The notes beneath the pieces were generated by a model that was given only the letters and a program-made list of their open reading frames with translations, ran no database searches and was not told the DNA's origin. Shown here piece after piece: positions 18,231 to 57,019 of a stretch of 64,000 nucleotides of DNA; position 1 is the stretch's first letter; the number at the start of each line of letters is the position of its first letter. The position numbers and the translations under genes are program-made. Source of the stretch: an uncultured Acidobacteriota bacterium (GTDB taxonomy: Bacteria > Acidobacteriota > Terriglobia > 20CM-2-55-15); the NCBI GenBank assembly GCA_963836435.1, contig CAWIJI010000006.1, positions 62,956 through 126,955 on the forward strand, in the 5' to 3' direction.

Positions 18231-18498
18231 GCAGTTCCCTCAAGGTTTTTGACAGCAACACGCCCTTCAAACTCAGGGGCTTCCATGAGTCACGGATGAG
18301 CCCAGCCTTCATGTTCGGTCTTAATAGGCCTTCCTGCTCAAGCTCCAGCAGAGTTTCTTCCTCCGAAGCCGCTTTCGAATATGGTTGAATTGTCGCGATA
18401 GGATTGCCTCTCTCCGTTAAAACAACAATTTTCCCCGCTTTGACCGCTTTAATGGCCTTGGAAAAACTCTGATTGGCTTCCCGTAGCCCCATTCTCAT
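18220..18498 (-). CDS. type II antitoxin (Phd/YefM-like) partner of VapC
   Basis: A 92-aa protein whose gene overlaps vapC by 11 nt. The N-terminal ...LREANQSFSKAIKAVKAGKIVVLTERGNPIATIQPY is typical of Phd/YefM-type antitoxins. Confidence 0.65.
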   Translation of the reverse strand: MRMGLREANQSFSKAIKAVKAGKIVVLTERGNPIATIQPYSKAASEEETLLELEQEGLLRPNMKAGLIRDSWKPLSLKGVLLSKTLRELRDQ

Positions 18499-19528: not shown

Positions 19529-19942
19529 TTAAACCTTTCCCCAGTCTTCCCAATCGAGCCCCTTCACGCGGCTGAACTCTCTCGCGTTTGCGGTTACGAG
19601 CGTCACCCTGTGGCGTAGCGCCTGCCCTGCCATCAACAAATCGTAAGCACCGATGGGGCGGCCTGCTGATTCCAAAGACGCACGCACTGCCCCAGCCGTC
19701 TTAGCGTCTTCTTCCTCGAAGTTCATCAAAACCATCGGCCCTGAAAAAAACGTTCGCAGTCGGTCACGGTTTTGTTCCTTTTGAGTGCTCTTTTCGGCTC
19801 CGTACCAGAGTTCGAAAGCAGCGATCGAGGATACGTGCACAATATCTCCCGTATTAATTGCCTTTTGAAACCGGCTGCGTACGTTGGCAGGCTTACCGTT
19901 AATTAAAGCGATACACGCATTCGTATCGAGGAGATACCTCAA
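19529..19942 (-). CDS. vapC: type II toxin-antitoxin system VapC-family toxin (PIN domain)
   Basis: Begins (M/L)[13 protein letters not shown] with a TTG start. Classic VapC acidic residues are present. Confidence 0.85.
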
Positions 19943-20700: not shown

Positions 20701-20739
20701 CGGCTTGTAGAAACCGGGATTTCGGTGTCGTATAAGAGC

Positions 20740-20830
20740 GATTACGTTAAGTTGGGGTGCATCACCCTGAAGGATGGTCTCCGAGGCGGGCCGGGCAGGC
20801 CGCTATTTTCCGGGCTGGCGGCCGAACAAC
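20740..20830. repeat. structured repeat family, copy B
   Basis: Same core as copy A, with the upstream extension tgtcgtataagagcgattac shared with copy D. Confidence 0.6.
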
Positions 20831-20854: not shown

Positions 20855-21370
20855 ATCCTGGGAGCCGGAACGACAAAGGCTGTCGCGGCCGACACTGCCA
20901 GAAGGCTGAACAATGGCCCACACGCTCGCATTGGCCAGCAAATTTCCGTCCGCATCACGCACGCGGCCTGAAATCGCCCCGCCACGAACCCACGACAGGG
21001 AGACATCGGCGGCCGGCGGCCGCGGATCGACCGTCACCGTTTGAGTAACGAAGGCCGGATAGACTCCGTTTGAGAGCGCGCCGAAATAACCTTCCAGCTC
21101 CGTCCCGAGGCCGCGGCGGCCTCATGTCGGTGTTCCGCGAGAATTGGCGGATCCAGACACAATGTGGCACGATGTCCCCCACGAAGGAGGGATCTCCCTG
21201 AACTCCAACTCCGGCTCTAATTGCTGAAAGGGTTCCGCCTCACCGAAAAGAATACGCCGTCCCCCAAAGATCGACGGTTCCGTCTGGGCCACTCTATAAC
21301 GGAACACCCGTTATACCGCCCCATCGGTCATACTCTCTCGACACCGCGGTTAAACCGCTTATCCGTCCTA
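20855..21370. repeat. segmental duplication copy 1 (about 510 bp, near-identical to 24233-24745)
   Basis: Aligns base-for-base with 24233-24745 apart from a few mismatches. It contains a CarboxypepD_reg N-terminal remnant (MTVDPRPPAADVSLSWVRGGAISGRVRDADGN). Confidence 0.75.
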
Positions 21371-22994: not shown

Positions 22995-24235
22995 AACACG
23001 ATAAAATCTTAAATGTACTTTCCAAACCGGACAGGCGTGAGTTTGGCGCGGTCGCAACTAACTTCATCATAGAGATCAACTTGTCTAACATCTCATGGAT
23101 CACACTATCCGTGAATTTATTGGTATGGAATGCTCCTCCAACATTTATTGAGCCGTCCCTGAAATCAAGACACAAGATCCTTAAGGGGCGCGGAAACTCA
23201 GGAAGGTGATCAAGCAACCCCATGCGGCTAATGGTTAGATCATTAACTACATCGGGATTCTCGTTCGTCATCAATTCACATGTTACGACCGGGGTTGAGA
23301 ACTCTTGGATAACGTCTGTTTTCGCCGGGTCGACTGCCGTATTATGAGGTCGCTTAGCATACTCCATGGCATCTCTTGAAAAATACTTGCCTCGGATATG
23401 GCATCCTTAACTCGCACGGTAATGTCTCCTAAGGTTTCACGCGATGAAATATCGACTCCCAGGACGCGGAAAGTCGAAAAATCGCCAATCAACAATTCAG
23501 TATGCCTCTGATCGCGATTTGCAAAATAGACGCCAAACGTGGACTCGTGGAATTGCCGACCAAAGATGAAATAGACAGACCGTAGCGGTGGCGAGCACGG
23601 TATACAAAGTCGACTTGTTGCCTGCAATGGCGTTGCGAAGATTCTCGCAGTCGAAGCTTGAAAGTGCTTTCCGTATGACTCTCCCACTCCCATTTCGGTC
23701 TGCTGGTCTTGAATAGAAAGACCGAATCCGGTCGCCCCTACTATGGTCGGTGATCGCCTGATTTCGTTTCGCAGCTGGGCTAGAGGTAGCGCCTCTTGGC
23801 TGATTGAAGGAAACAATATACCGCTTCGGGCCACTTCCGGAATCGATACAATGGGATCAGGATTTTGGAGCGATCGTAACTCAACGATTCTCGCGGCAAG
23901 TGTCTTGATAGTTGGCGTTTTTGAGAATTGCGCCGGGCTCACACTCACGGCAAAGTGTTCTTCCACGAGGTGAAGAAGTTGCGTGAGAAGCAAAGAGTCG
24001 CCCTCAAGTTCCCAGAACCCGTCGTCGCCCCCCAGTTGATCCTTCTTCAGTATTTCTTCCCAGATTCGCGCAAGCTTGAACTCTTCAGGCGTACTACAAG
24101 GTTTGTAGGCCGCATCCAAATTGGGGCGACTCCGACTCTCGGCAGGCAAGGCCGCTGTATTCACCTTGCCATTAAAACCTCGGGGGATCTCGTTCAGAAC
24201 AATGAAGGAAGCGGGAATCATGTGACTTGGAAGTC
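22995..24235 (-). pseudogene. decayed NRPS fragment: adenylation-domain A10 motif, a PCP (thiolation) domain, and condensation-domain pieces
   Basis: A10-like motif LPSHMIPASFIVLNEIPRGFNGKVNTAALP. PCP core DDGFWELEGDSLLLTQL with the Ser attachment site. A C-domain segment FGVYFANRDQRHTELLIGDFSTFRVLGVDIS...ASIFQEMPWSML. The C-domain C-terminus (HTNKFTDSVIHEMLDKL) lies in another frame, so the gene has internal deletions and frameshifts. Confidence 0.55.
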
Positions 24236-24745
24236 TGGGAGCCGGAACGACAAAGGCTGTCGCGGCCGACACTGCCAGAAGGCTGAACAATGGCCCACAC
24301 GCTCGCATTGGCCAGCAATTTCCGTCCGCATCACGCACGCGGCCTGAAATCGCCCCGCCACGAACCCACGACAGGGAGACATCGGCGGCCGGCGGCCGCG
24401 GATGGACCGTCACCGTTTGAGTAACGAAGGCCGGATAGACTCCGTTTGAGAGCGCGCCGAAATAACCTTCCAGTTCCGTCCCGAGGCCGCGGCGGCCTCA
24501 TGTCGGTGTTCCGCGAGAATTGGCGGATCCAGACACAATGTCGCACGATGTCCCCCACGAAGGAGGGATCTCCCTGAACTCCAACTCCGGCTCTAATTGC
24601 TGAAAGGGTTCCGCCTCACCGAAAAGAATACGCCGTCCCCCAAAGATCGACGGTTCCGTCTGGGCCACTCTATAACGGAACACCCGTTATACCGCCCCAT
24701 CGGTCATACTCTCGACACCGCGGTTAAACCGCTTAGACATCGGCC
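24233..24745. repeat. segmental duplication copy 2 (see 20855-21370)
   Basis: Near-identical to 20855-21370. Here its CarboxypepD remnant is fused in-frame to the NRPS fragment. Confidence 0.75.
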
Positions 24746-28301: not shown

Positions 28302-29978
28302 TAGGAGCCTGTAGGGGATAGATTTCTAGATTTCGATCAAAAACGGGACCAGTGTTGACGGGCGGGCAGGTAAAAGACGAAGGCATGACCAAATGCTTTG
28401 TTGATGACGAAATCGATCAGATATTGATGATGCCGCCGTCGCTGCACGATTGGCTCCCGGAAGACCATTTGGCGCGATTCGTGGCGGATTTGGTGCCGAG
28501 CCTAGATCTGTCGGCGTTCTACGCTTCCTATGAAGAGAAAGATGGACGAGGCAATGCTGCCTATCATCCGGTGATGATGGTGCGGTTGCTGGTCTATGGC
28601 TACTGCATCGGAGTCGTGAGTTCGCGGCAGATCGAGAAACGGACATACGAGGATGTGGCGTTCCGGTATTTGAGCGCGGATGAACATCCGCACTACACGA
28701 CGATCAACGAATTTCGGAAACGGCATTTGAAAGCATTGGAGGGATTGTTCCTGCAGGTGCTGGAGCTATGTCAGGCAGCGGGTCTGGTGAAGATGGGGCA
28801 TGTGGCCCTGGACGGGACGAAGAAGCAGGCGAACGCCAGCAAGCACAAGGCGATGAGCTATGGGCGGATGGGAGAAGCGGAAGAAAGGCTCAGAGCGCAG
28901 GTGAAGGAACTGCTCGATCGCGCTGAAGCCGTCGACGCGGCCGAAGATGAAATGGAGCGGCAAGGTTACAGCGACAAGTTGCCTGCGGAATTGGCGCGGC
29001 GGGAGAGCCGGTTGAAAAAAATCGCCGAGGCGAAGGCGGCGCTGGAAGCGGAAGCGCGGCGGAAAGCGGAAGAGAAGAAAGCTCAAGCCGAGGCGCGAAT
29101 TGCCGAGCGGCAGCAGCAGGAGCAGGAGACGGGAAAGAAGATCGGCGGGCGGGCGCCGCAGATTCCCGATCCGGAGCAGGCCAAGCCAGAGGATTGCGCG
29201 CAACGCAATTTCACCGATCCTGACAGCCGGATTATGGTCGACGGAGCGAACAAAGGCAGCTTCGTACAAGCCTACAACGCGCAGATCGCGGTGGATGCCG
29301 AAGCGCAAATCATCGTTGCCGCCGACGTCACGCAGGAAGTCAACGACAAGCAGCAATTGGCGCCGATGTTCGAGCAGGTCGAAAAGAATACAGGAGCCAA
29401 ACCAGTGGCGGGCAGCGCCGATAATGGTTATTGGGCTCCAGAACAAATTGCCGACAAGCACGTCGAAGGCATCGATCTCCACATAGCCACCGGGCGGGAT
29501 AAGCATGGAGCATCGGAGCAAACCGCGCCGTCAGCGGAGTCCGCAAAAGCGGCGACAGCTCTGGAGCAGATGAAGCAGAAACTGCAAACGGAGGCGGGGC
29601 GCGCCATTTACAAAATGCGCAAGGCGATCGTCGAACCAGTGTTTGGCCAGATCAAGGAATGCCGTCATTTTCGACGCTTCAGTCTTCGAGGCTTGGAAAA
29701 CGTCAGAGCGGAGTGGAAACTTGTCTGCGCGACACACAACCTTCTGAAGTTATTTCGATCGGGACGCGGATTTCAGGCTGCGGCGGCATGAAGAGGATGC
29801 AGGAACCTCAGAAAACATGATGAGACCGAACTTCTCTCGCCAGTCTCCCCGTGTTCTCGTGCGTCAAGCCTCAAACGCAATGTCGACGGTTCCCGAACGG
29901 CGACCTGCGGAATTTTTCGACACGGAAAATTTCGAATTTTGGGAACGGCGACCTGCCTTATCCCCTACAGGCTCCTAG
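28302..29978 (+). mobile_element. IS1182-family (IS5-like) insertion sequence with about 20-bp terminal inverted repeats
   Basis: Perfect inverted repeats CTAGGAGCCTGTAGGGGATA at 28302-28321 and its reverse complement at 29959-29978. Between them lies a single transposase gene. Confidence 0.75.
28385..29791 (+). CDS. IS1182-family transposase (DDE)
   Basis: N-terminal MTKCFVDDEIDQILMMPPSLHDWLPEDHLARFV... and the DDE region (...VALDGTKKQANASKHKAMSY...FVQAYNAQIAVDAEAQII...) are typical of IS1182-family transposases. The start is taken at M12 of the ORF-track translation. Confidence 0.8.
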   Translation: MTKCFVDDEIDQILMMPPSLHDWLPEDHLARFVADLVPSLDLSAFYASYEEKDGRGNAAYHPVMMVRLLVYGYCIGVVSSRQIEKRTYEDVAFRYLSADEHPHYTTINEFRKRHLKALEGLFLQVLELCQAAGLVKMGHVALDGTKKQANASKHKAMSYGRMGEAEERLRAQVKELLDRAEAVDAAEDEMERQGYSDKLPAELARRESRLKKIAEAKAALEAEARRKAEEKKAQAEARIAERQQQEQETGKKIGGRAPQIPDPEQAKPEDCAQRNFTDPDSRIMVDGANKGSFVQAYNAQIAVDAEAQIIVAADVTQEVNDKQQLAPMFEQVEKNTGAKPVAGSADNGYWAPEQIADKHVEGIDLHIATGRDKHGASEQTAPSAESAKAATALEQMKQKLQTEAGRAIYKMRKAIVEPVFGQIKECRHFRRFSLRGLENVRAEWKLVCATHNLLKLFRSGRGFQAAAA

Positions 29979-30905
29979 TTTCTTTCCGTCGCCCCTAAGC
30001 GTCAGGGCGCGGACTTCGGACAGGTCATGAAAGCTGGTCGCAAGATGTTCCGTGGCGTTGACTGCGGCCAGCAGACTGCCGTAAGCCGCCGCAGTCGGCG
30101 AGGTGTTATAGGCTGCAACGCTCAACAGCAGCGCCGTGTCGGGCGCACTGCGCAACGCGACCGTGGCTTGTTGGGCCAGGCGCGCCGACAACTCGATGCG
30201 AGTGGCATTGATGCCGGTCCTGATGAGGCTGAAGAGAACCATCGCGGCTACCAGAGCGGCCGTGCCCACCGCAAGCCGTTGCCGGCGGCGTCTTTGTCTA
30301 TCCCGCTGCCAGAGTTCGTCGAATTCGACATCGATAATTCGCGCGATGAGCTTCAGCAGCGCCTTGCGGCGCGCAACGCGCGGCCGGCTGTCCTCGCGCA
30401 GGAGGTCGGCCGCAACGGGCTCGACGCGCTTGTCCGTGATCTGGCCTGCCGCATCGACTTCATAGCGGAGCGCTTTGGGGAAACATTCCTGCGCTTCGTC
30501 GCCCGGATGATCCGAGGCGTGAGGCGCCCCGCCGACGATCAGTGCCAGGATATCCGTTTCCCGGCCGGATGCCTTGAACTTCACGACCTCCTTGTTGACC
30601 CACGAGTCAGGCCGCGCGGAGTTCGGCGAACAGAGGACGATCAGGTTGCGCGCCTGGTCCAGTGCATGGCCCAGCGCTGCTTCCAGATTGGGGTCCGAAC
30701 GTAATTCGTCGCGATCGCGGAATACAGGTTCCAGGCGCTTCGGCACGGGGCCCCGACCGGTTTGCCGGCCCACGAGGTTCGAGGGAATGCGGTAGGTCTC
30801 CAGCGCCCCGATCAACCATTTCGCGTGCTTCTGGTCCCGGCTGCTGTAGCTGATGAACGCCCAGTATTTGCGGGTCATCCTGCTGCGGGAATCTTCCGAA
30901 GACAT
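29979..30905 (-). pseudogene. TIR domain plus transmembrane helix: N-terminal part of the IS-split TIR-TM-WD40 gene
   Basis: Bacterial TIR signature (KYWAFISYSSRDQKHAKWLIGALE...LEPVFRDRDEL...LIVLCSPNSARPDSWVNKEV). One TM helix follows (LAVGTAALVAAMVLFSLI). The reading frame then runs straight into the IS1182 right inverted repeat. Confidence 0.65.
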
Positions 30906-33237: not shown

Positions 33238-33416
33238 GAACGACTATTGCTTTGAAGGCGGCTGCTGAAGGTTTTGGAGTTCGATTCCCTCACACGCGTG
33301 ACCAGAGCCTGAAAAAGCTGTTGGAGATGGGGAAGGTCGCTGCATCACCGCGCTTGAGACGGGTTCAGGACCTAGAATCCCGATGTCGATGTCCGAGCAG
33401 CGATCCGTTGGATCAA

Positions 33417-33515
33417 TTCGGCCCAAGTATGATTCTTCCGTTTTCTTGCTTCTTTCCCGGACTCCGGGGCGCCAGGTGTTTCCTTGTCGGGGGACCTCGC
33501 TTCCGAGCGTCAGTT
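33417..33515. repeat. about 95-bp IS91-transposase 3' fragment (solo copy)
   Basis: Near-identical to 16109-16205 and 45447-45540. Confidence 0.55.
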
Positions 33516-33549: not shown

Positions 33550-34252
33550 ATGAAATACGCCAACCTCGGTGGCACCGGTATCAGCGTGTCGCGCATCTGC
33601 CTCGGCATGATGACGTATGGTTCCAGGCAATGGCGCGACTGGGTTCTGGAGTACCCGGAGGCGAAACCGTTCGTCACACGCGCGCTCGAAGCCGGCGTCA
33701 ATTTCTTTGACACGGCGGACGTCTATTCCAACGGCGCGTCGGAGGAAGTATTGGGCCGCGCACTGCGGGAGATCGGCGTGGACCGTAACGACGTCGTCAT
33801 CGCGACGAAATGCAACTTCGGTGCAGAACCACTACAACCTGCTGTACCGCGAAGAGGAGCGGGAAATGATTCCGCTGTGCGCCGATCAGAAGGTGGGGCT
33901 GATCCCGTGGAGTCCTCTTGCCCGCGGATACCTGGCACGTGATCGCGGGACGCTGAAGGCGACCACGCGTGCGAACTCCGATGAGTTCACGAAGGTCCTG
34001 TATGACCCGGAGTTCGATGGCGCCCTCATCCAGCGCAATGCCGAAACGGCGGCGCGGCTGGGCGTCAAGCCGGCGCAGACGGCGCTCGCCTGGCTGCTCG
34101 CCAAACCCGGTGTGGTCGCCCCGATTGTCGGCGCTTCCAAGCTCCCGCATCTGGATGACGCGATCGCCGCCGTCGATCTGGAACTCTCCGCAGACGACGT
34201 TAAACAACTTGAATCGCTGTACGCGCCGCGCGCCGTTGCCGGACATTCGTAG
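33550..34252 (+). pseudogene. aldo/keto reductase with internal deletion and frameshift
   Basis: AKR N-terminus (MKYANLGGTGISVSRICLGMMTYG...NFFDTADVYSNGASEEVLGRAL...VIATK). It then jumps at about 33820 into a different frame carrying the AKR C-terminal half (QNHYNLLYREEERE...LIPWSPLARGYL...IVGASKLPHLDDAI). The central catalytic part is missing. Confidence 0.55.
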
Positions 34253-34373
34253 TAAACCGCTGACGCAGTAGTTGCAGCCCACAACGTTTGTAGCCCGCAC
34301 AGGCAGGAAGAGCGCTCTTTGGCTGAAGGATACAGACCGGAGATCTCAATAGGGACACTGGATGGGGGCTTTT

Positions 34374-34529
34374 TTACGGTTTCTTCGCGACAACCTTCCC
34401 GTTTTCCCAGACGATGAGCCGCGTGCCGTGCATGCGGGCTGCTTTTCTGGCAGCGCGAGGGACGCGTTTCATTGCCCTGGCAACGGATTCGAAGAACCGT
34501 TTGTCTTCAGCAGACATCTTCTTTTTCAT
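34374..34529 (-). CDS. 51-aa basic protein translationally coupled downstream of the zeta-like ATPase gene
   Basis: MKKKMSAEDKRFFESVARAMKRVPRAARKAARMHGTRLIVWENGKVVAKKP. Its ATG overlaps the ATPase stop (ATGA). Coordinates were derived by hand. Confidence 0.3.
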   Translation of the reverse strand: MKKKMSAEDKRFFESVARAMKRVPRAARKAARMHGTRLIVWENGKVVAKKP

Positions 34530-35053
34530 GTGCGGCCTTGATCGATCAGCTTCGGTGCTCCGGCATTATCGTAAACCATCCAGGCATCGGCCAGGGGGCG
34601 ATAAACGTCTACAAAGTTGTCCCAGCTTCGCTGAAATCTGCGAACGACATCTTCTGCAGCGACATTGTGGCCTCCCTGTTGAACCCGTGCAGCAATGCGC
34701 CGGAGTGCTACTTGAGGTGAGGGAATCGTCAGGTAGATGATTTCGACGCGATATCCTTGAGCCTTCCAGCGCTGCAGACGAAACGCATAGGTCCGTCCGC
34801 TCAACGTGCTTTCGAAGGCGAAGCTGGCGCCACTCGTCGCCAGGCGATCCATCTCTCGAAGGAATAACCGGCCCGCCGCGACGGCCGCCAGTTCAGGGCG
34901 CAGGGGGGAAAGCCCCCCTGCAATCAGATCGGCGTTAACAAAGTGAACGATATTTGATTCCCGCGTGAGGTACTCGCGGGCAAAGGTTGTCTTGCCCGCT
35001 CCATTTGGACCCGCAATGACAAGACATCGCGGTTGTCCATTTCCCTTGGACAT
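34526..35053 (-). CDS. zeta-toxin-like / AAA_33 P-loop kinase-fold ATPase
   Basis: Walker A GPNGAGKTT near the N-terminus. A 175-aa protein with overall similarity to zeta toxin / UNAG-kinase-fold proteins. Confidence 0.55.
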   Translation of the reverse strand: MSKGNGQPRCLVIAGPNGAGKTTFAREYLTRESNIVHFVNADLIAGGLSPLRPELAAVAAGRLFLREMDRLATSGASFAFESTLSGRTYAFRLQRWKAQGYRVEIIYLTIPSPQVALRRIAARVQQGGHNVAAEDVVRRFQRSWDNFVDVYRPLADAWMVYDNAGAPKLIDQGRT

Positions 35054-35309
35054 AGGGAGATGTTACGGGAATTGAGGGACCTTGACCGATTTTTTCCAAA
35101 CAACTTGAATCGCTGTAGGCGCCGCGCGCCGTTGCCGGACATTCGTAGTCTCGGAACGTTGGAGCTGAATCGTTACTGCACGGACTGGGGCACGCCTGTC
35201 TCGAAGAACTTCACCAGCGCATTCTGGCTGGCGGATTGGTCGCCGGCCTCGTGATGGACGTTGGAGAAGCTGCGACGCAGGAAAGGGGGCCCGCGCTTCC
35301 CTATGCCCG

Positions 35310-36935
35310 CTAACGCGCGTTGCTGCTCTTCAGCGACACCGTTGCCGCCGCCCGGGGTTTGATCTCGATCGGCGTGCCCTGGCCGCGATTGGCCAGGAAG
35401 AACTCCACCCAGTCCGCCGTTCCGGCAGGCATCGCCACAGCAAAGTATCGGTCCGGCCGCAGCAGGATCGAAGCGGACGTTGTTCCGGGCTCGATGGGTG
35501 AACACGTTCCTGTCAAAGCGATCTCTTCACGAGTTACCGAAGAACTGGAAGCCACACACACCGAGGCGTTCACTTCGTTCCTGTTGTCCTTGTCGAGAAC
35601 GGTAGCGGTCAGTTTTCCCATGTCGGTACCCACAGTGATGCGAAGCCCGCAATCGCTGTTGTCCAGTTTCAGGGTGTTGCGGGAGACCGTGCCGCCACAG
35701 GAAACATCCTTGAGATACCCATCCGAAGGGCCGCTGAACCTGCCCAGGTTGATCCTGTAGTCTGTGGAGGGCAGCAGGGAAACCGAAAACCGCGAAGGCA
35801 CGGCCACATCCATCGCGTTCAGCAGGAACGGCTGGCTTTCGAAAGCGACCCGGTTCAACGGAGTGAACGACAAGCGATAGGTGTTTTGCGGCGGTGTTTC
35901 TCCGCCGTCGTAGCGAATCTCCGCAGCCAGACTCACGGGGGAGTGCACACTCAACTTCAAGTCATGCACGTCGCGATCGAGAACGGAAAGGGTCGTGCGT
36001 CCATACGAATCCGCAGTAAACAGGAACTGAGTTGTCCGGGGCTCGGGGCCCGGATTGTTCATCCCCGCAGCAAGCAGGAACTCGCCCGGCCAAAGCCCGC
36101 ATGCTTGAAAATGACCCGACGCATCGGATTCTCCGCGGGCAATCACTCCCTGGGTGCCTCCCGTGGTTCCCCGGTATCCCGCGACTTCAGGAATCGCGAT
36201 CTCAAAGCCGCGAACGGCCAGTTCGCCGCCGGCGGTCAGCATTCCGTCGACGCAGTAGCTCGGCTTTCTTTCCATCATGAAGTCGAGATGCTTCTTTTCG
36301 GCGGAGCGGATCACGAAGGGTTGCGCGAGGCCGGGACGGCCGGGATACCAAATCGCCTCCAACGTCGGCGTGCCGGATAAGGTCGGCCGGGGCGTCGCGG
36401 GAGGTAAAACCAGCACGTAATACGGCAGCCCGGTTTCCACTCTGGCCGAAAGGTTGTAACGGCCGCGGTCATCGGTCGGTCTTGCGGCGGTGAAGACCCT
36501 GTACGGTTTCTGTCCCGGGAGATACTCCATGGTGACCAGCAACACATCGGCGCCTTGTACGGGTTCGCCGGCCTCGTCGAGAACGGCGCCCGTGATCTCA
36601 CCCGGGATCCGTAGAAAAATGTCAGCGGGAGTTGCCGGCGGCGGATCGGTAATCTGGACGAAGCGGAGAGTCCCGGTTTCTATCCCCTTGTACCGAAACT
36701 GGATCTGATATCGTCCCGGCGTCAGATCCGAGACAACGAATTCTCCTTTAACGTCGATCACCCGGCGTGTTGCGGCGGACGCCCCTTCCTTCGTGACGAC
36801 GATCGTGACTTCCTCGGTGGCCGTCTGTCCCGTGTCCGCATCGACGATTCGGCCGTGGAACGATACCGGGGTCTGTGCAACGGACGTGACCGCGATCGCA
36901 GCGAGAGCCACTAAGGACGCCAATGAGAGTCTCAT
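35310..36935 (-). CDS. secreted CarboxypepD_reg-like domain protein
   Basis: Signal peptide MRLSLASLVALAAIAVTSVAQ. Repeated CarboxypepD_reg motifs (FHGRIVDADTGQ..., GAVLDEAGEPVQGADVLL). The start is moved to the Met before the signal peptide. Confidence 0.7.
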   Translation of the reverse strand: MRLSLASLVALAAIAVTSVAQTPVSFHGRIVDADTGQTATEEVTIVVTKEGASAATRRVIDVKGEFVVSDLTPGRYQIQFRYKGIETGTLRFVQITDPPPATPADIFLRIPGEITGAVLDEAGEPVQGADVLLVTMEYLPGQKPYRVFTAARPTDDRGRYNLSARVETGLPYYVLVLPPATPRPTLSGTPTLEAIWYPGRPGLAQPFVIRSAEKKHLDFMMERKPSYCVDGMLTAGGELAVRGFEIAIPEVAGYRGTTGGTQGVIARGESDASGHFQACGLWPGEFLLAAGMNNPGPEPRTTQFLFTADSYGRTTLSVLDRDVHDLKLSVHSPVSLAAEIRYDGGETPPQNTYRLSFTPLNRVAFESQPFLLNAMDVAVPSRFSVSLLPSTDYRINLGRFSGPSDGYLKDVSCGGTVSRNTLKLDNSDCGLRITVGTDMGKLTATVLDKDNRNEVNASVCVASSSSVTREEIALTGTCSPIEPGTTSASILLRPDRYFAVAMPAGTADWVEFFLANRGQGTPIEIKPRAAATVSLKSSNAR

Positions 36936-36939
36936 CCTT

Positions 36940-38367
36940 CTAAAATCCTTTCGACTCGCCGGGTGCGAGTTCGATCGCGGTTTGCTCACAATCGGCCGCG
37001 GAGAGCCAGCGTGGACTAAGATCCGTTGCGGATTTTTTCGTGAAGCAATACCGGCCGGGCGTGAGGCCCTCGAAGCGAAACTCCGGCGAGCCTGGAAACA
37101 CGGCCTGCACCGGCGCTTCACGACCCGGAGTCACGTCACGCAGCAGGATCACGTTCGCGCCTCGAGCGTCGCCATGAATCATGCCGGGCGGCTGAAATCC
37201 CAGGATCACGCGCTGCGGAGGAACGTTGCCCCGCATATCGAACAGGGGCTCGGTCACGCCCGTGCATCCGCCGCTCGTGCTTTGCGCGCTGACGGCGAAC
37301 AACGTCGGTCCGACGTTCTCGATGCGCGTGGGAGCCTGCTGCGTAGCAATGTGCGCGATGATCTTCTGATCGCGGACGAGCGGCCAGAATCCGAGAGACT
37401 GAAGCGTCAGGGTCCCGTCCGGGGAGCAGCCGGCATGGGGGCTGTCTGGTGCCACCACGAACTCCACGGTACGCCCCGGTTGCAGTCGAATATCCAGGTT
37501 CTCGACGTTCTGGCCATGCAGATCCAGGTGCACGTGTTCAAAGAACGACGGCGGCATGACCGGCCCTGATGCGTACAACTCGTAGGCGCCGGGTTGGAAG
37601 TTATCCAGCTTGAAGGCGCCGTCTGCAGCCGTCAGCGTGAGTTGCGCCCGGACTGACGGATAGTCCGAGGGCGTGATCGTCAGGGTGTAAGTCTGCTGGC
37701 CCGCCGGCGAAGAGATCCTGCCGCTGATCGTGGACGTTCCTTGAGGCTGCACGACAAAGTCAGGAACGTCGTATTGCTCACCCCCGGCGATTTCAAACTC
37801 GCGAGGCCGTGCGTTGGCCGGATAGAGCGCGAATCCGCGGGCCACGCCCGGAAGTGTATTCGCACTGATGAACGGCGCGGACAGCACGTAACGGCCGGGA
37901 GGAATGCCGTAGACACGGAAGTCGCCGGCCGCGTCGATCATTCCCGAATAGGTGCGCGGGATCCGATGCAGCGGCACCTGTTCAATGACGAGCACGGCGC
38001 CGCCGTTTCGGGGAGGGGTGATGTGTCCGGCGATAACGCCGTATTTGACGAGACGCAAAACGGGAATTGCCGTTGAAGCCTGGGTCGCCGTCATAGCCGC
38101 GTCCAGGCTCGCGTAGTTTGCCTTGGTGATGCTGACCCGATAGACGCCGGCAGCGACGTCCAGGAATTCGAAACCGCCGCTTCGGCCGGTTTGCGTTTCC
38201 TTCACGGTGACTCCGGCGGCGGTCTTCAATCGCACGGACGCTGCGAGCACCGCGGCGTCCGAGTGGTCTTCGAGAACTGTGCCGCGAAGCACTTCAGCGC
38301 GCGCGACTCCGGTCCAGGTGGTCAGGAAACTCAGGGCCAATAGACATCGGGCGTTCACGGTTTTCAA
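36940..38367 (-). CDS. secreted CarboxypepD_reg-like domain protein (tandem with 35310..36935)
   Basis: Signal peptide MKTVNARCLLALSFLTTWTGVARA and CarboxypepD_reg modules (LRGTVLEDHSDAAVLAASVRLKT...). Confidence 0.7.
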   Translation of the reverse strand: MKTVNARCLLALSFLTTWTGVARAEVLRGTVLEDHSDAAVLAASVRLKTAAGVTVKETQTGRSGGFEFLDVAAGVYRVSITKANYASLDAAMTATQASTAIPVLRLVKYGVIAGHITPPRNGGAVLVIEQVPLHRIPRTYSGMIDAAGDFRVYGIPPGRYVLSAPFISANTLPGVARGFALYPANARPREFEIAGGEQYDVPDFVVQPQGTSTISGRISSPAGQQTYTLTITPSDYPSVRAQLTLTAADGAFKLDNFQPGAYELYASGPVMPPSFFEHVHLDLHGQNVENLDIRLQPGRTVEFVVAPDSPHAGCSPDGTLTLQSLGFWPLVRDQKIIAHIATQQAPTRIENVGPTLFAVSAQSTSGGCTGVTEPLFDMRGNVPPQRVILGFQPPGMIHGDARGANVILLRDVTPGREAPVQAVFPGSPEFRFEGLTPGRYCFTKKSATDLSPRWLSAADCEQTAIELAPGESKGF

Positions 38368-38747
38368 ACACTATAACCGCCAGCCGGGATCCTGCAATGT
38401 TATTTTTATAACGGATGTGTTGTCACGCCGCTGCTTAACTCGGTTTACCTTTCACCGCCCGCAATCCCCCAGATCCGGCGCCGCGATGGCACCCTCCGAA
38501 CATCCTGAGCCTCGGGAGTAAGTGTCGCATAAAGCAGAACGTTTTTAGCGTAGCGACGCGGCGAGTCAAGATCAGCATGGAAAGCTCCTTTGCGAATTGG
38601 AATTTGCTGCGATCAGCAGCCTCCATGGTTTCGCAAGGAACTTGTACGAGGAAGAACTCCGTTAGATTCTCATGACGCGGGAAACTGGCAGGCCCATCGA
38701 CAACCCATCGGCCAGCAACCTACCGCAGCAGCGGTTTAGTCCAAGAG

Positions 38748-38830
38748 CGATTACGTTAAGTTGGGGTGCTTCACCCTTGAAGGATGGTCTCCGAAGCGGG
38801 CCGGGCAGGCCGCTATTTTCCGGGCTGGGC
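38748..38830. repeat. structured repeat family, copy C
   Basis: Same core as copies A, B and D. Confidence 0.6.
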
Positions 38831-39722: not shown

Positions 39723-39768
39723 GACAAGGTGAGTAAGGCCCGGGGAGTTTCACCCCGAGCCTCTCGCA

Positions 39769-39802
39769 GAACCGTACTTGAACGTCTCCGCTCATACGGC
39801 TC
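39769..39802 (-). ncRNA. group II intron catalytic domain V
   Basis: The minus-strand sequence is GAGCCGTATGAGCGGAGACGTTCAAGTACGGTTC. It matches the group II domain-V consensus GAGCCGUAUG...CGUACGGUUC, including the AGC triad and the bulged stem. Confidence 0.55.
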
Positions 39803-40787
39803 CCGCCATGGAACCTCTCCGCACGCCCATAGTCCAATGGGCAAACACCTGCGGAGCGCGCCGTGAAATTCGGGCGATCCAATGTGCGGCGCGCCGCTTG
39901 TGACGGCGCAGTTTCTTGTATTTCCGTGACGCCCAGCGCGTCAACGCGCGGTCCAGCGTGCGCATGGACGGATACATTGCCGAGCGGTAGTACCGCCCGT
40001 AGTACTGGAGCCAACCTCGAACGATCGGGTTAAACATCCGGGAGAGATCTTCGATGGACTTATCACTGCATCTGGCCAGGTGCCAGCTCCGAATCTCCGA
40101 CCGTATGGCTTTCGCGGCTTTGTTTGAAACCGCCGGCGTGAAATTGATGAAGAACTTTCCCGCTCCAGTATCCAGTTCACTCGCTTGCTCGCGATTCCCA
40201 CGCTTAACGCATCCAGCGCTCGATGGAAATTTCTTCCGGGACGAAACCCATAGGAGAATCCCGGAAACTCGGCCTCGTAGATTTCGTTGAGGATTGACGC
40301 CACTGCCTGTTGAACAAAATTTGTCCGCCAGTGCAGCAATGCCAATCGGACGTTTCCGTCCGTCCGGCTTTGGGATGTAAATTCTCAGTGAGGATTGTGC
40401 CCGCTAGGCTCCGCGATGCACTCGGCCGTGTAGATCCTTCAAGCGATCTTCCACTCCTTTTTCGTACTCCCTCCACGTCATCTCATCGACTCCCGCGGCT
40501 GCTGTCTTCTTCAGATGCAGAAAACTGCTCCGCAGCAAATCGACCGTCAGGTGGTGGAGTAGGCTCGTGAACCGTTCCTGCTTCTTTTCCTTTGCAGTAC
40601 GGCGCACACGTTGAAGCCCCGTTGACACGTCTTTGTCCCCGCTCGGCGTCGTGGACGTGTGTTGCTCCATCATGTTCTCCTTGTTCGGCGGCCTTCCCTC
40701 CGGACTTCTCCTCCCGTGCTTCATGCCACGTTCGTTCGAATCCTTCATCGGTACTACGCCGCTGTCCGACTCCTCGCCTCCGTTCAT
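39792..40787 (-). pseudogene. group II intron-encoded RT/maturase (IEP), nonsense- and frameshift-disrupted
   Basis: RT domain 0/1 (40404..40787: ...FTSLLHHLTVDLLRSSFLHLKKTAAAGVDEMTWREY...) ends at an in-frame TAG. RT domains 1-2 (39941..40345: QQAVASILNEIYEAEFPGFSYGFRPGRNFHRALDAL) lie in another frame. Maturase domain X (39792..40037: ...IVRGWLQYYGRYY...) is in a third frame. RT domains 3-7 are missing. Confidence 0.6.
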
Positions 40788-41173
40788 GTCCGTCGTGCGG
40801 CCTTGGCCTTCACGGACCGGCCTGATCTCTCAGGCGGCGACGAGGCCTCCCGGTTCTCGTGCATGTTGTTTCTTTGCGTGCGCGGGGTCTACGACTACGG
40901 AGGACTCGACCGACGCTCGCTTAGCGCGCCAGCCAATGGTGCCTTCTCCCTCAGCCTAAAAGATCGGCGTCCCCAATTGGGTTTTCGAAGCTCAATACCC
41001 GGCCCGCAAATGCCTCTGTCTACGCTTCAGTTCTGGCCTCGCGGCCAGCGCTGCAAGACTCAAGGTCAGGATGGTTTGCTACTCCTTTCCTGTAGGACTC
41101 TTTCATTCCCTACAAGATGCCGGTTTATCCCGGCGCACAGGCTGTCCCCAGAACTCCAACTTGAACTGGGAAC

Positions 41174-43204: not shown

Positions 43205-43262
43205 GAACATAGGAGTTTTAAGAGGCCGGTCGGGAGTGTACTCCGATGCGCGATCCCGGCCT
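43205..43262. repeat. about 55-bp direct repeat (copy 1) derived from a tyrosine-integrase coding segment; left boundary of a low-GC island
   Basis: ataggagttttaagaggccggtcgggagtgtactccgatgcgcgatcccgg recurs at 45025-45080. It encodes NIGVLR(G/D)RSGV(Y/C)SDARSR. Confidence 0.5.
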
Positions 43263-44513: not shown

Positions 44514-45092
44514 ATGCAGAACGAAGTTCAACCACTGTCCCCGACCCCTCTTTCGGCCTTGGTTGAGGCGGGACGGAGTGAGGGCGAGCATAGCGAGACC
44601 GAGCGGAGTGCCGCCTCAACCAAAGCCGGCGCCGACGCGGCCGGCGTGGCCCGGCCCGATCCGGAGGTCGTCGCGAAAGCAAAGCGGCGGCGATTCACCG
44701 CCAAGTACAAGCAGCAGGTTTTGGCAAAGGCCGACGCGGCGGCGTCTGACCCTGGCGCCATCGGAGCGCTGTTGCGGCGCGAGAGACTCTACTCCTCGCA
44801 CCTGGTAGCGTGGCGTCGACAACGGGACGCCAGCACTCGACAAGGCCTCGAGCCCCGGAGACGCGGCCCGAAGCCGAAGCGGAATCCCATGGCTGAACAA
44901 ACGGGGGATTTGATCGGAAAAATCCGCGTCATGAAGGTTAGGGTGATGGTCGCGATGGCGATCACGGTCGGCCTTCGCCGCGGAGAATTGATCGGCCTTT
45001 GTTGGAGGCATCTCGACCTGAACATAGGAGTTTTAAGAGACCGGTCGGGCGTATGCTCCGATGCGCGATCCCGGGTTTTCAGTGTCGTATAA
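44514..45092 (+). mobile_element. composite remnant: IS3-family OrfA-like transposase N-terminal fragment fused to a tyrosine-integrase fragment
   Basis: ...PDPEVVAKAKRRRFTAKYKQQVLAKADAAASDPGAIGALLRRERLYSSHLVAWRRQRDAS... is IS3/IS911 OrfA-like. The tail ...ITVGLRRGELIGLCWRHLDLNIGVLRDRSG... resembles a tyrosine-recombinase catalytic-domain segment and runs into the 55-bp direct repeat. Confidence 0.5.
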
Positions 45093-45094
45093 GA

Positions 45095-45180
45095 GCGATT
45101 ACGTTAAGTTGGGGTGCTTCACCCGGAAGGATGGTCTCCGAAGCGGGCCGGGCAGGCCACTATTTTCCGGGCTGGCGGCG
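45095..45180. repeat. structured repeat family, copy D (immediately 3' of the IS91 tnpA stop)
   Basis: Same core as copies A-C. It sits between the integrase fragment and the IS91 transposase stop at 45256, so it may be the IS91 oriIS-side terminus. Confidence 0.55.
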
Positions 45181-45255
45181 AAAACAAGAGCCGTGGTGTT
45201 TGTTTTTTCGCTCTGGCGTGCAGACGAATCCTTCGGTCGCGCAGAAGCGGCCAAG

Positions 45256-46521
45256 TCAGGCCCAGTCGAAAGTGCTGGCGAGGTCGGCGCTGCGCGCCGC
45301 GGGAGCGAGCGGCGGCGGTCGGCAGGGCAAGCCGAGGTGGTCAAGAATCTTCCGGGTGGCGGCCGGCGGATGGATCGGGGAAATCAGGCGCAGCTTGCCG
45401 CCGCATTTTCCGCAGACGGTCGCATCCGCTGCGAACACGCGTTGGATCAATTCGGCCCAAGTATGATTCTTCCGTTTTCTTGCTTCTTTCCCGGACTCCG
45501 GGGCGCCAGGTGTTTCCTTGTCGGGGGACCTCGCTTCCGAAGGAGCGGATTTGGCCTCCTCAAAAGAAAGTGTGGCCGCGGTCGTCTCCGAACTGGATTC
45601 GGCGGCAGGCACGATCTGGGCCCGCCATTTCGCGGCGGGGCCAAGCACGCCGGAGAACCGAATCAAATGAGCGCGGGGCGTGGGGATCAGCGCCGCAAGA
45701 CGTTCAATAAATTCCAGCGGGGTAAATACGGCGTGCGTCGTGCCGTCACGCCACGGCGTCTTCAGGCGGTAGCAGAGGCGTCCGTCCGGCAATCGTTCGA
45801 GCCGGTCGGTGGCAAAGGGAGGACGGGCCGCGTAACGGAGCAATCGCTCCAAACGAATCCGATTGTTTTGCGGGACAACAACGGCGGCATGGAGGTTGAA
45901 ACCGTCGACGGCGGCGCACAGCGGAGAGGATCTCTCTTCGATCGCCTCCGGTTCAATTGCGCCTCCAGCCAGCGTGACGCGCCGGCCGGCGTTCGGGCCG
46001 TCAGCGATCCGGTTCGAGACGGAAGCCGCATAAAGTCCCGCCAGCCAGGGTTGCTCCCGCGACAGCGGGTCTTCTTCACCACAAGATTCTCCGAACCGGC
46101 GCTGGACCAGGGTCGTGATTCGAGAAGCCAGCGTCTCGGTCAGTTGCCGAATTTCGCTGTCCTCAATGCGCCTCAACGGATAAAAACGCGGACGGCCGTC
46201 CACATCCGGAGCATATACCCCATCGATGCAAACCATGTGGATATGAACATTAAGATTGAGGCTCCCTCCATAGCGCTGTACGAACGAGACCGCGCCGCAT
46301 TGCGTTTGATGGATGCCGCACGCCAATATGCCGCATTCGAGGACCCCGCGAAGTTCGAGTTCCACGAATCTGGGCACATCTCTCCCCTTCTCTTTCTGCC
46401 GAGCCAGAAACGTTTCGAGATTCTCCTGAAGCAGGCGGTAGACGAGCGATTGCCCGGGATCACGCGGGCGATACTCTCCGGCCGGATTGTTTCTCGCACC
46501 ACATCCGGCGTGGTTCAACAC
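45256..46521 (-). CDS. IS91-family (rolling-circle, HUH) transposase, possibly internally deleted
   Basis: N-terminal zinc-finger region (...RPRDPGQSLVYRLLQENLETFLARQKE...LECGILACG...). HUH region (LNLNVHIHMVCIDGVY). C-terminal ...HTWAELIQRVFAADATVCGKCGGKLRLISPIHPPAATRKILDHLGLP typical of IS91 TnpA. The 491-aa ORF on the opposite strand is taken as an antisense artefact. Confidence 0.7.
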   Translation of the reverse strand: MLNHAGCGARNNPAGEYRPRDPGQSLVYRLLQENLETFLARQKEKGRDVPRFVELELRGVLECGILACGIHQTQCGAVSFVQRYGGSLNLNVHIHMVCIDGVYAPDVDGRPRFYPLRRIEDSEIRQLTETLASRITTLVQRRFGESCGEEDPLSREQPWLAGLYAASVSNRIADGPNAGRRVTLAGGAIEPEAIEERSSPLCAAVDGFNLHAAVVVPQNNRIRLERLLRYAARPPFATDRLERLPDGRLCYRLKTPWRDGTTHAVFTPLEFIERLAALIPTPRAHLIRFSGVLGPAAKWRAQIVPAAESSSETTAATLSFEEAKSAPSEARSPDKETPGAPESGKEARKRKNHTWAELIQRVFAADATVCGKCGGKLRLISPIHPPAATRKILDHLGLPCRPPPLAPAARSADLASTFDWA

Positions 46522-56960: not shown

Positions 56961-57019
56961 TGCGATCCGATCGATTGGCGCTGGTGGCGAATCCCCTCCC
57001 CCGATCCTCACCCGGGCCT

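What the first reader, a model, noticed from the sequence alone, without database searches (positions are those of the whole stretch)
34202..35148. Mini-cassette (zeta-toxin-like ATPase plus a 51-aa basic protein) inserted at the 3' end of a decayed AKR gene, flanked by 51-bp direct repeats
aaacaacttgaatcgctgta(c/g)gcgccgcgcgccgttgccggacattcgtagt occurs at 34202-34252 (the last codons and stop of the AKR pseudogene) and again at 35098-35148. Between the repeats lie only the AAA_33/zeta-like P-loop gene (GPNGAGKTT) and a translationally coupled tiny basic ORF. No integrase or transposase is present. A duplication this long suggests site-specific integration (att duplication), or a replicative insertion mechanism that I cannot name.
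Basis: seen in the sequence. Interest (0 to 1): 0.55.

Follow-up and report, generated by a model that had tools for sequence, protein, structure and literature searches.

The report
Toxin cassette inserted with long target duplication
A tiny two-gene toxin-antitoxin-like cassette with no mobility gene sits behind a decayed reductase gene between two copies of that gene's last 52 bases, and relatives of the cassette show the same anatomy at other genes, so this family offers many cases for studying how such "addiction" genes move.

Summary
A 52-nt direct repeat (51/52 identical) lies at 34202-34253 and 35098-35149. It brackets 844 bp that hold only a zeta-toxin-fold P-loop kinase gene and a translationally coupled 51-aa ORF. 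The left copy is the true 3' end of an aldo-keto-reductase pseudogene.

The two genes are a conserved unit in a very large, cross-phylum family. Four independent contexts out of about 45 carry the same two-gene unit tightly bracketed by different 52-77-nt repeats. Each repeat copies the end of the neighbouring gene: AKR 3' end, tRNA-Phe 3' part, vapC 3' end, and the 5' end of an unnamed gene. A control found none in 508 pseudo-cassettes of the same geometry.

No integrase lies in the insert or in the 64-kb window. The four repeats are unrelated in sequence. The cassette ends lie 0-44 nt from the ORFs on one side and 0-120 nt on the other.

The closest known phenomenon is "insertion with long target duplication", described for restriction-modification modules, whose mechanism is unknown. 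The main rival is a decayed integrase-type element, because one clade of the family sits beside classical tRNA-Phe att-like scars. No clean empty site was found. This is a new member of a known but unexplained kind of event. Interest is moderate.

The parts
33550..34252 (+). Aldo-keto-reductase pseudogene (the target gene). It reads in two frames, with an internal deletion of about 275 nt and a frameshift near 33819-33822.
   Evidence: Pfam Aldo_ket_red matches 33550-33822 (profile 1-71, E 4e-20) and 33818-34252 (profile 159-290, E 5e-26). The ortholog L065 (84-87% nt identity) carries the missing stretch.
34202..34253 (.). Left copy of the 52-nt direct repeat: the last 16 AKR codons, TAG and 1 nt. 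It is contiguous with the AKR gene.
   Evidence: Homology with the AKR ortholog in L065 runs through this copy and stops at 34254.
34254..34373 (-). 120-nt tail of the insert, between the small-ORF stop and the left repeat. It shows no similarity to the tails of related cassettes.
34374..34529 (-). 51-aa basic ORF, the putative partner or antitoxin. Its start overlaps the toxin stop (ATGA).
   Evidence: It is conserved just 3' of the toxin gene in related loci. 67 homologs were found, all unnamed. No Pfam, NCBIfam, PADLOC or PDB match. The AF2 model shows a helix at 7-34 plus a beta-hairpin at 38-49, pLDDT 87, with no significant fold match.
34526..35053 (-). 175-aa zeta-toxin-fold P-loop kinase (GPNGAGKTT).
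   Evidence: Pfam Zeta_toxin 2.6e-11 and AAA_33. More than 7,900 homologs, about 70% identical across phyla. The AF2 model (pLDDT 85) best matches PezT 2p5t and zeta 1gvn/3q8x (TM 0.73-0.78, E about 1e-7), then AvrRxo1.
35054..35097 (-). 44-nt leader of the insert. A TAACAT box (35065..35060) ends 6 nt before the ATG. The box is shared with the closest relatives L058 and L059 and may be a -10 element for a near-leaderless mRNA (inference).
   Evidence: The sigma-70 consensus scan found no canonical promoter.
35098..35149 (.). Right copy of the repeat: a displaced relic of the AKR 3' end. The Tyr codon TAC has become TAG.
   Evidence: This copy also aligns to the AKR end in L065 at positions 1003-1055.

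Best explanation
The 844-bp segment is a horizontally acquired, addiction-type (toxin-antitoxin-like) two-gene cassette. It entered the chromosome without a dedicated recombinase, by the class of event called "insertion with long target duplication".

In this event the two ends of a short incoming DNA, or of a copied template, were joined to the chromosome at two points 52 bp apart. One point lies just behind the AKR stop codon and the other 52 bp upstream. The AKR 3' end therefore now stands on both sides of the insert.

The joining was done by host repair or replication functions. The candidates are:
- microhomology-mediated template switching;
- end joining to two sister duplexes;
- capture through one homologous anchor in the conserved flanking gene plus one illegitimate join.

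The insert persists because losing it would release the zeta-type kinase from its partner. The insertions we see are those whose duplication leaves the neighbouring gene end intact.

Shown: the anatomy, its recurrence in the family, the absence of a recombinase, and the zeta fold.
Inferred: the joining mechanism, the toxin-antitoxin function, and the direction of the event (insertion rather than loss).
For: 1. The repeat is exact target sequence. The left copy is contiguous with AKR and colinear with the ortholog in L065, and the right copy aligns to the same AKR end.
2. The anatomy recurs with different targets:
   - L024: 60/60 nt of the tRNA-Phe 3' part. The toxin ATG is 29 nt after copy 1, and the small-ORF stop abuts copy 2.
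   - L011: 73/76 nt, plus 11 more across an indel of about 23 nt. The repeat covers the RBS and the first 23 codons of the downstream gene.
   - P0098 loci L082 and L084-L089: a 58-nt core of the vapC (PIN) 3' end. The PIN stop overlaps the toxin ATG.
3. Flank-to-flank alignment scores are bimodal. Four contexts have z above 28 and all others z of 5 or less. None of 508 control pseudo-cassettes reached a score of 25.
4. The four repeats share no sequence. Cassette ends are not conserved and lie 0-44 nt from the toxin start and 0-120 nt after the small-ORF stop. DNA similarity between relatives stops at or within about 20 nt of the ORF ends.
5. The same cassette sits in different contexts: L092 and L094 share 894 nt at 98.8% identity, and L108, L109 and L110 share it at 97-98%.
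6. No integrase was found in the insert or in the 64-kb window, and there are no terminal inverted repeats.
7. The L084 junction shows patchy microhomology: GAAAAACCCTGAAC against target GAAAAAGGCCGAAC.
8. The anatomy matches published cases for restriction-modification modules. Those have repeats of more than 30 bp that are variable in length, carry no mobility genes, and often span the start or stop of a gene so that the target stays intact (PMC2853133).
Against: - No clean empty site was found. The best AKR ortholog (84% aa identity) has a different downstream neighbour.
[quoted passage not shown] A random staggered event does not predict this. An att-type identity block, or a limit of donor-recipient homology, does.
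- One clade of the family sits beside classical tRNA-Phe scars. A roughly 173-nt "tail plus tRNA-Phe 3' half" unit occurs both with and without the cassette (L092, L044), and homology between related genomes breaks exactly at the CCA end (L016, L018, L019).
- Only about one context in ten shows repeats.
- Toxicity and neutralisation are untested. The partner gene lies downstream, unlike epsilon/zeta.
- Most evidence comes from short metagenome contigs.
Confidence: 0.5

Rival explanations
1. This is an att duplication from site-specific recombination. On this reading the cassette is the last remnant of a decayed integrative element, a CIME-like scar that kept attL and attR. Alternatively it is an integrase-less satellite made of attP plus the toxin-antitoxin pair, moved by an integrase supplied in trans.
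For: [quoted passage not shown]
- The repeat boundary falls at the gene end in AKR (+1 nt), tRNA-Phe (+2 nt) and vapC (inside the stop codon).
- The family is recurrently linked to tRNA-Phe. L114 has an intact tRNA-Phe 46 nt before the toxin. L112 and L113 have a tRNA-Phe fragment there. L092 and L016-L019 have a relic after a conserved tail. L044 has two cassette-free copies of that tail-plus-relic unit.
- The window's 44-nt leader and 120-nt tail could hold arm sites.
- Addiction would protect the toxin-antitoxin pair from the deletions that removed the rest of the element.
Against: - Four closely related cassettes would need four different recombinase specificities.
- L024, L011 and L084 leave only 0-29 nt on either side of the ORFs, with no room for arm sites.
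- Independent deletions would have to trim four elements down to the same two ORFs, including an ATGA overlap with the vapC stop.
- The L024 repeat starts in the D arm, 13 nt further 5' than the att-type relics of related loci.
- No integrase and no remnant of one was found in the window.
Confidence: 0.27
2. This is local rearrangement rather than insertion. On this reading the cassette already lay behind AKR, and the second 52-nt copy arose later. The route would be tandem duplication of the 896-bp unit followed by loss of one cassette copy, or ectopic gene conversion.
For: - The window holds other long direct repeats, such as 504 nt at 20858-21361 and 24235-24735, so segmental duplication does occur here.
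- Repeat-flanked modules are known to amplify (statement in PMC2853133).
Against: - It needs two precise steps.
- It does not explain why the same anatomy recurs at four unrelated targets in one gene family, with none among 508 controls.
- No second cassette copy or fragment is present in the window.
Confidence: 0.08
3. This is an assembly artefact. On this reading a separate roughly 0.9-kb circle or another strain's contig shared a k-mer with the AKR 3' end and was threaded into the chromosome by the assembler.
For: The Logan unitig starts and ends with the same 30-mer, which fits either a repeat-flanked insert or a circle.
Against: - The right copy extends 21 nt beyond the mismatch into AKR sequence. 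Any circle would therefore itself carry all 52 nt of AKR, which is still the same biology.
- The same anatomy is seen in contigs from other projects and assemblers (L011, L024, and 7 contigs of the P0098 group).
- An 896-bp circle has no replication gene.
Confidence: 0.03

Closest known systems
Insertion with long target duplication of restriction-modification gene complexes (Nobusato et al. 2000, Gene 259:99; Furuta, Abe and Kobayashi 2010, PMC2853133)
   Same: - A small addiction-type gene module is inserted with no mobility gene.
- It is flanked by direct repeats of more than 30 bp that copy a single-copy target sequence.
- Repeat length and sequence differ from case to case.
- Repeats often span the start or stop of a neighbouring gene, so the target gene stays intact.
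   Different: - The cargo here is a zeta-type kinase pair, not a nuclease and methyltransferase. The authors' idea that the restriction enzyme's own DNA breakage drives the event cannot apply.
- One family shows the anatomy at four or more targets.
- The repeats here end within 0-2 nt of the gene end.
- No empty-site genome was available here, whereas those papers had one.
CIMEs and decayed integrative elements that keep attL and attR (definition in Guedon et al. 2017, PMC5704250)
   Same: - There is no integrase.
- Direct repeats include the 3' end of the target gene.
- The cargo is a stabilising module.
- Relatives sit in arrays of tRNA-Phe relics.
   Different: - Nothing links the window's cassette to a parent ICE or IME.
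- The repeats differ among close relatives.
- The units are under 1 kb, and most have no space for arm sites.
Epsilon/zeta and PezAT toxin-antitoxin systems, and AvrRxo1-Arc1
   Same: The toxin has the zeta fold and a Walker A motif. As in AvrRxo1-ORF2, the small partner gene lies downstream. That last point rests on my own knowledge and on the title of PDB entry 4z8q.
   Different: - The partner has no detectable similarity to epsilon, PezA or Arc1.
- The toxin is 175 aa against 240-270 aa.
- The substrate and toxicity are unknown.
Homology-facilitated illegitimate recombination and microhomology-mediated template switching. This comparison rests on my own knowledge (de Vries and Wackernagel 2002; the MMBIR models) and was not checked in the paper library.
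   Same: One conserved flank (AKR, tRNA-Phe or vapC) could serve as the homologous anchor. The other junction shows patchy microhomology in L084.
   Different: As far as I recall, the described events usually delete recipient DNA rather than duplicate it. No donor sequence is known here.
Integron gene cassettes
   Same: Both are compact units, mostly without a promoter, that end close to the ORF boundaries and often carry toxin-antitoxin pairs.
   Different: There is no attC, no attI and no intI, and the repeats are host gene ends.

Membership tests
Insertion with long target duplication (criteria of Furuta et al. 2010) | The inserted segment is flanked by direct repeats longer than 30 bp. | tested here: met
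   52 nt, 51/52 identical.
Insertion with long target duplication (criteria of Furuta et al. 2010) | The repeat corresponds to one copy of the sequence at an empty site in a related genome. | tested here: inconclusive
   L065 carries a single AKR 3' end that aligns to both copies. However, its downstream flank is unrelated, so it is not a clean empty site.
Insertion with long target duplication (criteria of Furuta et al. 2010) | The insert is under 20 kb, holds the complete module and has no mobility gene. | tested here: met
   The insert is 844 bp with two intact ORFs only.
Insertion with long target duplication (criteria of Furuta et al. 2010) | The repeat is not a dispersed multi-copy element. 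| tested here: met
   Only two copies occur in the 64-kb window with up to 3 mismatches. The genome-wide count could not be tested.
Site-specific integrative element or CIME | [quoted passage not shown] | tested here: met
   The repeat ends 1 nt after the AKR stop codon.
Site-specific integrative element or CIME | The unit descends from an element with an integrase. Evidence would be remnant genes, arm sites, or a related full element at the same site. | tested here: not met
   No integrase or remnant was found in the window. The closest relatives L058, L059 and L060 lie at other sites without repeats.
Site-specific integrative element or CIME | The same att sequence is used by independent elements in other genomes. 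| not tested
Epsilon/zeta (PezAT) type II toxin-antitoxin | The toxin has the zeta kinase fold and a P-loop. | tested here: met
   Pfam Zeta_toxin 2.6e-11. Foldseek best hits are PezT and zeta, TM 0.73-0.78.
Epsilon/zeta (PezAT) type II toxin-antitoxin | An epsilon- or PezA-type antitoxin is encoded upstream. | tested here: not met
   The partner lies downstream and matches no known family or fold.
Epsilon/zeta (PezAT) type II toxin-antitoxin | The toxin is toxic and the partner neutralises it. | not testable with these tools
   This needs expression assays.
DNA transposon or insertion sequence | A transposase, terminal inverted repeats and a short target duplication. | tested here: not met
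   There is no transposase in the insert and no inverted repeat at its ends. The duplication is 52 nt.
Integron cassette | An attC site at the 3' end, in an array next to intI and attI. | tested here: not met
   No imperfect-palindrome repeat is shared between cassettes. The tails are unrelated. No intI was found in the window (Pfam calls).
Diversity-generating retroelement (VR/TR pair) | A reverse transcriptase nearby, and repeat copies that differ at adenines. | tested here: not met
   No reverse transcriptase gene lies between or beside the repeats. The single difference is C against G.

The most novel reading that the evidence does not exclude
The zeta-like kinase and small-ORF pair is the cargo of a widespread family of sub-kilobase, recombinase-less mobile cassettes. 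These use a copy of the end of a conserved host gene as their own attachment sequence.

On this reading, repeat-by-repeat recombination releases a circle, or a repeat-cassette-repeat fragment. That molecule can re-enter any genome with the same gene end, by host homologous recombination or with a borrowed integrase, and addiction then fixes it. This would make it a minimal selfish element made only of a toxin-antitoxin pair and about 50-80 bp of host gene.
Probability: 0.2. Interest if true: 0.8.

Novelty: new member of a known kind. Interest (0 to 1): 0.55.

Why it matters
How toxin-antitoxin and restriction-modification modules spread between genomes without mobility genes has been an open question for more than twenty years. 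"Insertion with long target duplication" has been described only for restriction-modification genes, and its mechanism is unknown.

Here a non-nuclease module shows the same anatomy. That removes the proposed role of the module's own DNA cleavage. The family is also very abundant: more than 7,900 relatives were scored in the search, and identity is about 70% across phyla. About one context in ten carries a fresh footprint. This supplies many independent events for working out the junction rules, and a concrete unit of about 0.9 kb to test in the laboratory.

If the rival explanation is right, the locus is an ordinary scar of a decayed integrative element, and its interest is low.

Tried and rejected
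- **Empty-site search.** AKR homologs reach at best 84% aa identity. L065 is an ortholog with its own nonsense codon and a different downstream gene. L066 is unrelated downstream.
- **Plasmids and viral contigs.** Plasmid tblastn gave 533 hits, all below 50% identity, annotated "zeta toxin family protein". Viral contigs gave 8 distant loci with no repeats.
- **Conserved cassette termini.** I looked for terminal inverted repeats, shared leaders and shared tails. I found only a TAACAT box 6 nt before the ATG in the closest relatives, and a loose ATCGG motif. These are too weak to call an end-recognition site.
- **Junction microhomology in the window.** The only match is a 4-nt AAAC shared by the start of the insert and the start of the repeat. 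It is not significant on its own. L084 shows better patchy homology.
- **Donor or recipient origin of the relic.** Between L082 and L084 the relic differs at 7 of 58 positions, against 1.35% in the genes, and it stays in frame. The excess over a neutral rate is only marginal (about p = 0.05), so this is not decisive.
- **Small protein.** No match in Pfam, NCBIfam, PADLOC, a PDB profile search or Foldseek.
- **Promoter scan.** No canonical sigma-70 site.
- **Rejected classes.** DGR, integron cassette, transposon and CRISPR-like repeat duplication were considered and rejected on their defining features.
Full report
**1. The observation**

The repeat exists and is 52 nt long. It lies at 34202-34253 and 35098-35149, is 51/52 identical, and the copies start 896 nt apart. 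With up to three mismatches it has only these two copies in the window, and none appeared in 100 shuffles.

A Logan unitig from run ERR11718635 (L001, 925 nt) is identical to window 34224-35148. It starts and ends in the shared 30-mer. The sequence of the insert and of the G-variant right copy is therefore reproduced by a second assembler.

The left copy is the true end of an aldo-keto-reductase pseudogene. Pfam Aldo_ket_red covers profile positions 1-71 at 33550-33822 and positions 159-290 at 33818-34252 in another frame. The ortholog on L065 (84-87% nt identity) carries the roughly 275 nt that the window lacks.

**2. The insert**

The 844 bp between the copies comprise four parts:
- a 44-nt leader;
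- a 175-aa ORF on the minus strand;
- a 51-aa ORF that overlaps it by ATGA;
- a 120-nt tail.

The large protein matches Pfam Zeta_toxin (2.6e-11) and AAA_33. Its AlphaFold model (pLDDT 85) is closest to PezT and zeta toxin (TM 0.73-0.78), then AvrRxo1. A sequence-only search of the PDB finds nothing close.

The small protein has no match in Pfam, NCBIfam, PADLOC or the PDB. It is predicted as one long helix plus a beta-hairpin, with no significant fold neighbour.

The pair is a conserved operon:
- tblastn finds the small ORF directly 3' of the toxin gene in most related loci.
- Gene calls on independent contigs show a 50-58-aa gene overlapping the toxin stop.

The toxin family is very large. 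7,995 of the 8,000 scored candidates passed the E-value cut-off, and the best are about 70% identical in Verrucomicrobia, Betaproteobacteria and Acidobacteria. That pattern points to frequent horizontal transfer. The toxin-antitoxin function is inferred from fold and gene organisation, not shown.

**3. The surroundings**

The cassette lies between the convergent 3' ends of the AKR pseudogene and a CarboxypepD_reg gene (35310-37121, minus strand).

It sits inside a variable stretch of about 12-46 kb. That stretch holds other toxin-antitoxin genes (PIN and Phd at 17781-18498, PIN at 19529-19942), an IS4-type transposase, TIR, WD40, SEC-C and RHS proteins, and a group II intron remnant. Ordinary metabolic genes flank it.

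No integrase was found among the 47 ORFs scanned with Pfam. The insert's GC content is 56%, against 59% for the whole window.

**4. Related loci**

I collected 114 loci.

I aligned the 300 nt before each toxin gene against the 430 nt behind each small ORF. The scores are bimodal. Four independent contexts score z above 28, and every other context z of 5 or less. None of 508 pseudo-cassettes of the same geometry, placed elsewhere in the window and in the long loci, reached a score of 25.

The four contexts:

| Context | Repeat | What is duplicated | Junction details |
|---|---|---|---|
| Window | 52 nt, 51/52 | AKR last 16 codons, stop, +1 nt | 44-nt leader, 120-nt tail |
| L024 | 60 nt, 60/60 | 3' 58 nt of an intact tRNA-Phe, +2 nt | toxin ATG 29 nt after copy 1; small-ORF stop directly abuts copy 2 |
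| L011 | 76 nt, 73/76, plus 11 nt more across an indel of about 23 nt | RBS and first 23 codons of the downstream gene | the truncated upstream copy ends in a TGA that overlaps the toxin GTG |
| P0098 group (L082, L084-L089; soil metagenomes from several projects) | 58-nt core | last 58 nt of a vapC (PIN) gene | the functional copy ends in ATGA, so the PIN stop overlaps the toxin start; the relic ends in TAA, 3 nt before the next gene |

L108 may be a fifth case. It has sigma-ECF gene fragments on both sides of the cassette, but the contig ends inside the upstream copy.

The four repeats share no sequence.

**5. The mobile unit is essentially the two ORFs**

- DNA similarity between the window and its closest relatives (79-84% aa identity; L058, L059, L060) starts 0-18 nt before the ATG and ends at the small-ORF stop.
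- L092 and L094 share 894 nt at 98.8% identity in otherwise unrelated, IS-rich contexts. The shared block has a 43-nt leader and a 165-nt tail.
- L108, L109 and L110 share the cassette at 97-98% identity in three contexts. In L110 a PemK module is inserted beside it.
- L113 and L112 diverge 7 nt before the small-ORF stop.
- The only conserved non-coding feature I found is a TAACAT or TAGACT box that ends 6 nt before the ATG in some lineages.

**6. Comparison with what is known**

The anatomy matches "insertion with long target duplication". That phenomenon was found by genome comparison for restriction-modification modules of all types, including an orphan methylase and an mcrA gene. Its features are:
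- repeats longer than 30 bp, of variable length and sequence;
- no mobility gene;
- repeats that often span a start or stop codon, so that the target gene survives (PMC2853133).

The authors guessed that DNA breakage by the restriction enzyme drives the event. A kinase-type module showing the same anatomy argues that breakage by the cargo is not needed.

In my text searches I found no report of this anatomy for toxin-antitoxin cassettes. The paper library is incomplete, however.

**7. The rival: an att scar**

Three observations keep this rival alive.

[quoted passage not shown] In L011 it lies at the RBS. This is what att identity blocks look like, because only the gene part needs to be restored. 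A random staggered event would give it with a probability of about 0.05 per case. Selection for expression could explain L011 and L084 (translational coupling) and perhaps L024. It cannot explain the window, where the cassette is convergent with AKR.

*The link to tRNA-Phe*:
- L114 has an intact tRNA-Phe 46 nt before the toxin gene.
- L112 and L113 have a tRNA-Phe 3' fragment in that position.
- L092 and the L016-L019 group have a relic behind a conserved tail (GCAAGTGATTGA...).
- That roughly 173-nt tail-plus-relic unit occurs twice in L044 without any cassette beside it.
- Homology between 91%-identical genomes (L016, L018, L019) stops exactly at the CCA end.

These are classical signs of integrase-type islands accreting at a tRNA gene.

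*The CIME definition.* CIMEs are defined as decayed elements that keep attL and attR (PMC5704250).

Against this rival for the mini-cassettes:
- Four specificities would be needed for close relatives.
- There is no room for arm sites in L024, L011 and L084.
- Independent deletions would have had to trim different islands to exactly the same two ORFs.
- The L024 repeat begins in the D arm, 13 nt beyond the start of the att-type relics in related loci.
- No integrase is present in the window.

**8. Mechanism**

I favour a recombinase-free event carried out by host repair or replication. The two ends of a short DNA, or of a copied template, are joined 52 bp apart.

Two variants fit the data. I cannot separate them.

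*Variant a: capture through a homologous anchor.*
- A homologous anchor in the conserved flanking gene is combined with an illegitimate, microhomology-guided join slightly upstream of the anchor's end.
- This explains the gene-end boundary as the limit of donor-recipient homology.
- It also explains why most contexts have no repeat: the join fell downstream of the gene end instead.
- It further explains the roughly 23-nt indel between the L011 copies and the TGA/TAA difference in L084.
- Donor-type arrangements, with tRNA-Phe followed directly by the cassette and no relic, do exist (L114).

*Variant b: de novo duplication by template switching.*
- This fits the near-identity of the copies: 51/52, 60/60, and 58/58 at the inferred time of insertion in L084.

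The relic in L082 differs from that in L084 at 7 of 58 positions, against 1.35% in the genes, and it stays in frame. That hints at different recipient alleles, but it is only marginally above a neutral rate.

Retention by addiction, and survival only of insertions that keep the neighbouring gene intact, are inferences from what is known of such modules.

**9. Verdict**

- The finding is real and more than chance.
- It is a horizontally acquired zeta-type two-gene cassette, inserted behind the AKR stop codon with a 52-bp duplication of the target.
- It is one of at least four such events in its family.
- It belongs to a known but mechanistically unexplained kind of event, with a new type of cargo.
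- The att-scar reading remains a serious rival, at about one chance in four.
- A clean empty site, read-level evidence for excision, and a family-wide junction survey would settle it.

Noticed in passing
window 20858-21361 and 24235-24735: A 504-nt direct repeat (98.8% identical) brackets about 2.9 kb. The bracketed stretch holds two CarboxypepD_reg-like ORFs and an NRPS-like carrier-domain fragment. It may be a second, larger insertion or duplication flanked by long repeats in the same region.
   Followed up: partly
window 45020-45987, with partners at 13392-13603, 16105-16203, 17518-17593, 20714-20830, 33406-33506, 38743-38828 and 43205-43259: Apart from the 52-nt cassette repeat, the 504-nt pair and the 56.4-57.0 kb block, every long repeat of the window has one copy inside a 1-kb mosaic at 45.0-46.0 kb. 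All partners are in direct orientation and lie in a nested order. The outermost pair (213 nt, 95% identical) brackets the whole variable region of about 32 kb. The 101-nt copy at 33406-33506 (100% identical to its partner) ends 43 nt before the AKR start codon. This suggests growth of the region by repeated insertions at one locus. It remains unexplained.
   Followed up: partly
window 17518-17593, 20746-20820, 38755-38828, 45103-45177: An approximately 80-nt element is conserved in four direct copies. It contains two hairpins, the second followed by a T-run (GCGGGCCGGGCAGGCCGCTATTTT). It has no Rfam match at gathering score. It could be a terminator-bearing small RNA or a repeat element.
   Followed up: partly
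window 39728-39804 and 40885-41101 (minus strand): Rfam finds group II intron domains D1-D4 (173 bits) and D5/D6 (54 bits) only about 1.1 kb apart. No reverse transcriptase ORF was detected between them. This is an ORF-less or decayed intron.
   Followed up: no
window 56452-56963: A dense block of direct and inverted repeats of 50-120 nt at spacings of 142-392 nt. Its nature is unknown.
   Followed up: no
L065 1-1518: The AKR ortholog on this contig is also a pseudogene, through a different lesion: a TAG where DLYQIHR is expected. The gene is therefore decaying independently in two related lineages.
   Followed up: partly
L044 207-377 and 3298-3470; L092 2147-2320: A roughly 173-nt unit, made of a conserved tail with GCAAGTG(A/G)TTGAT plus a tRNA-Phe 3' half, recurs at 80-83% identity with or without the cassette next to it. 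It looks like the attR arm and core of a family of tRNA-Phe-specific islands.
   Followed up: partly
L082-L091; L110 822-1413; L114 899-1578: Toxin-antitoxin modules stack directly against the zeta cassette. VapBC lies upstream, overlapping it by 4 nt (a four-gene operon on 13 contigs). PemK lies beside it in L110, and HepT/MNT in L114.
   Followed up: partly
L019 1143-3239 (minus strand): A 698-aa TIR-TPR protein and a DUF433 protein lie just upstream of the cassette. The cassette therefore sits in a defence-island-like context there, as it does in the window (TIR protein at 29958-30905).
   Followed up: no
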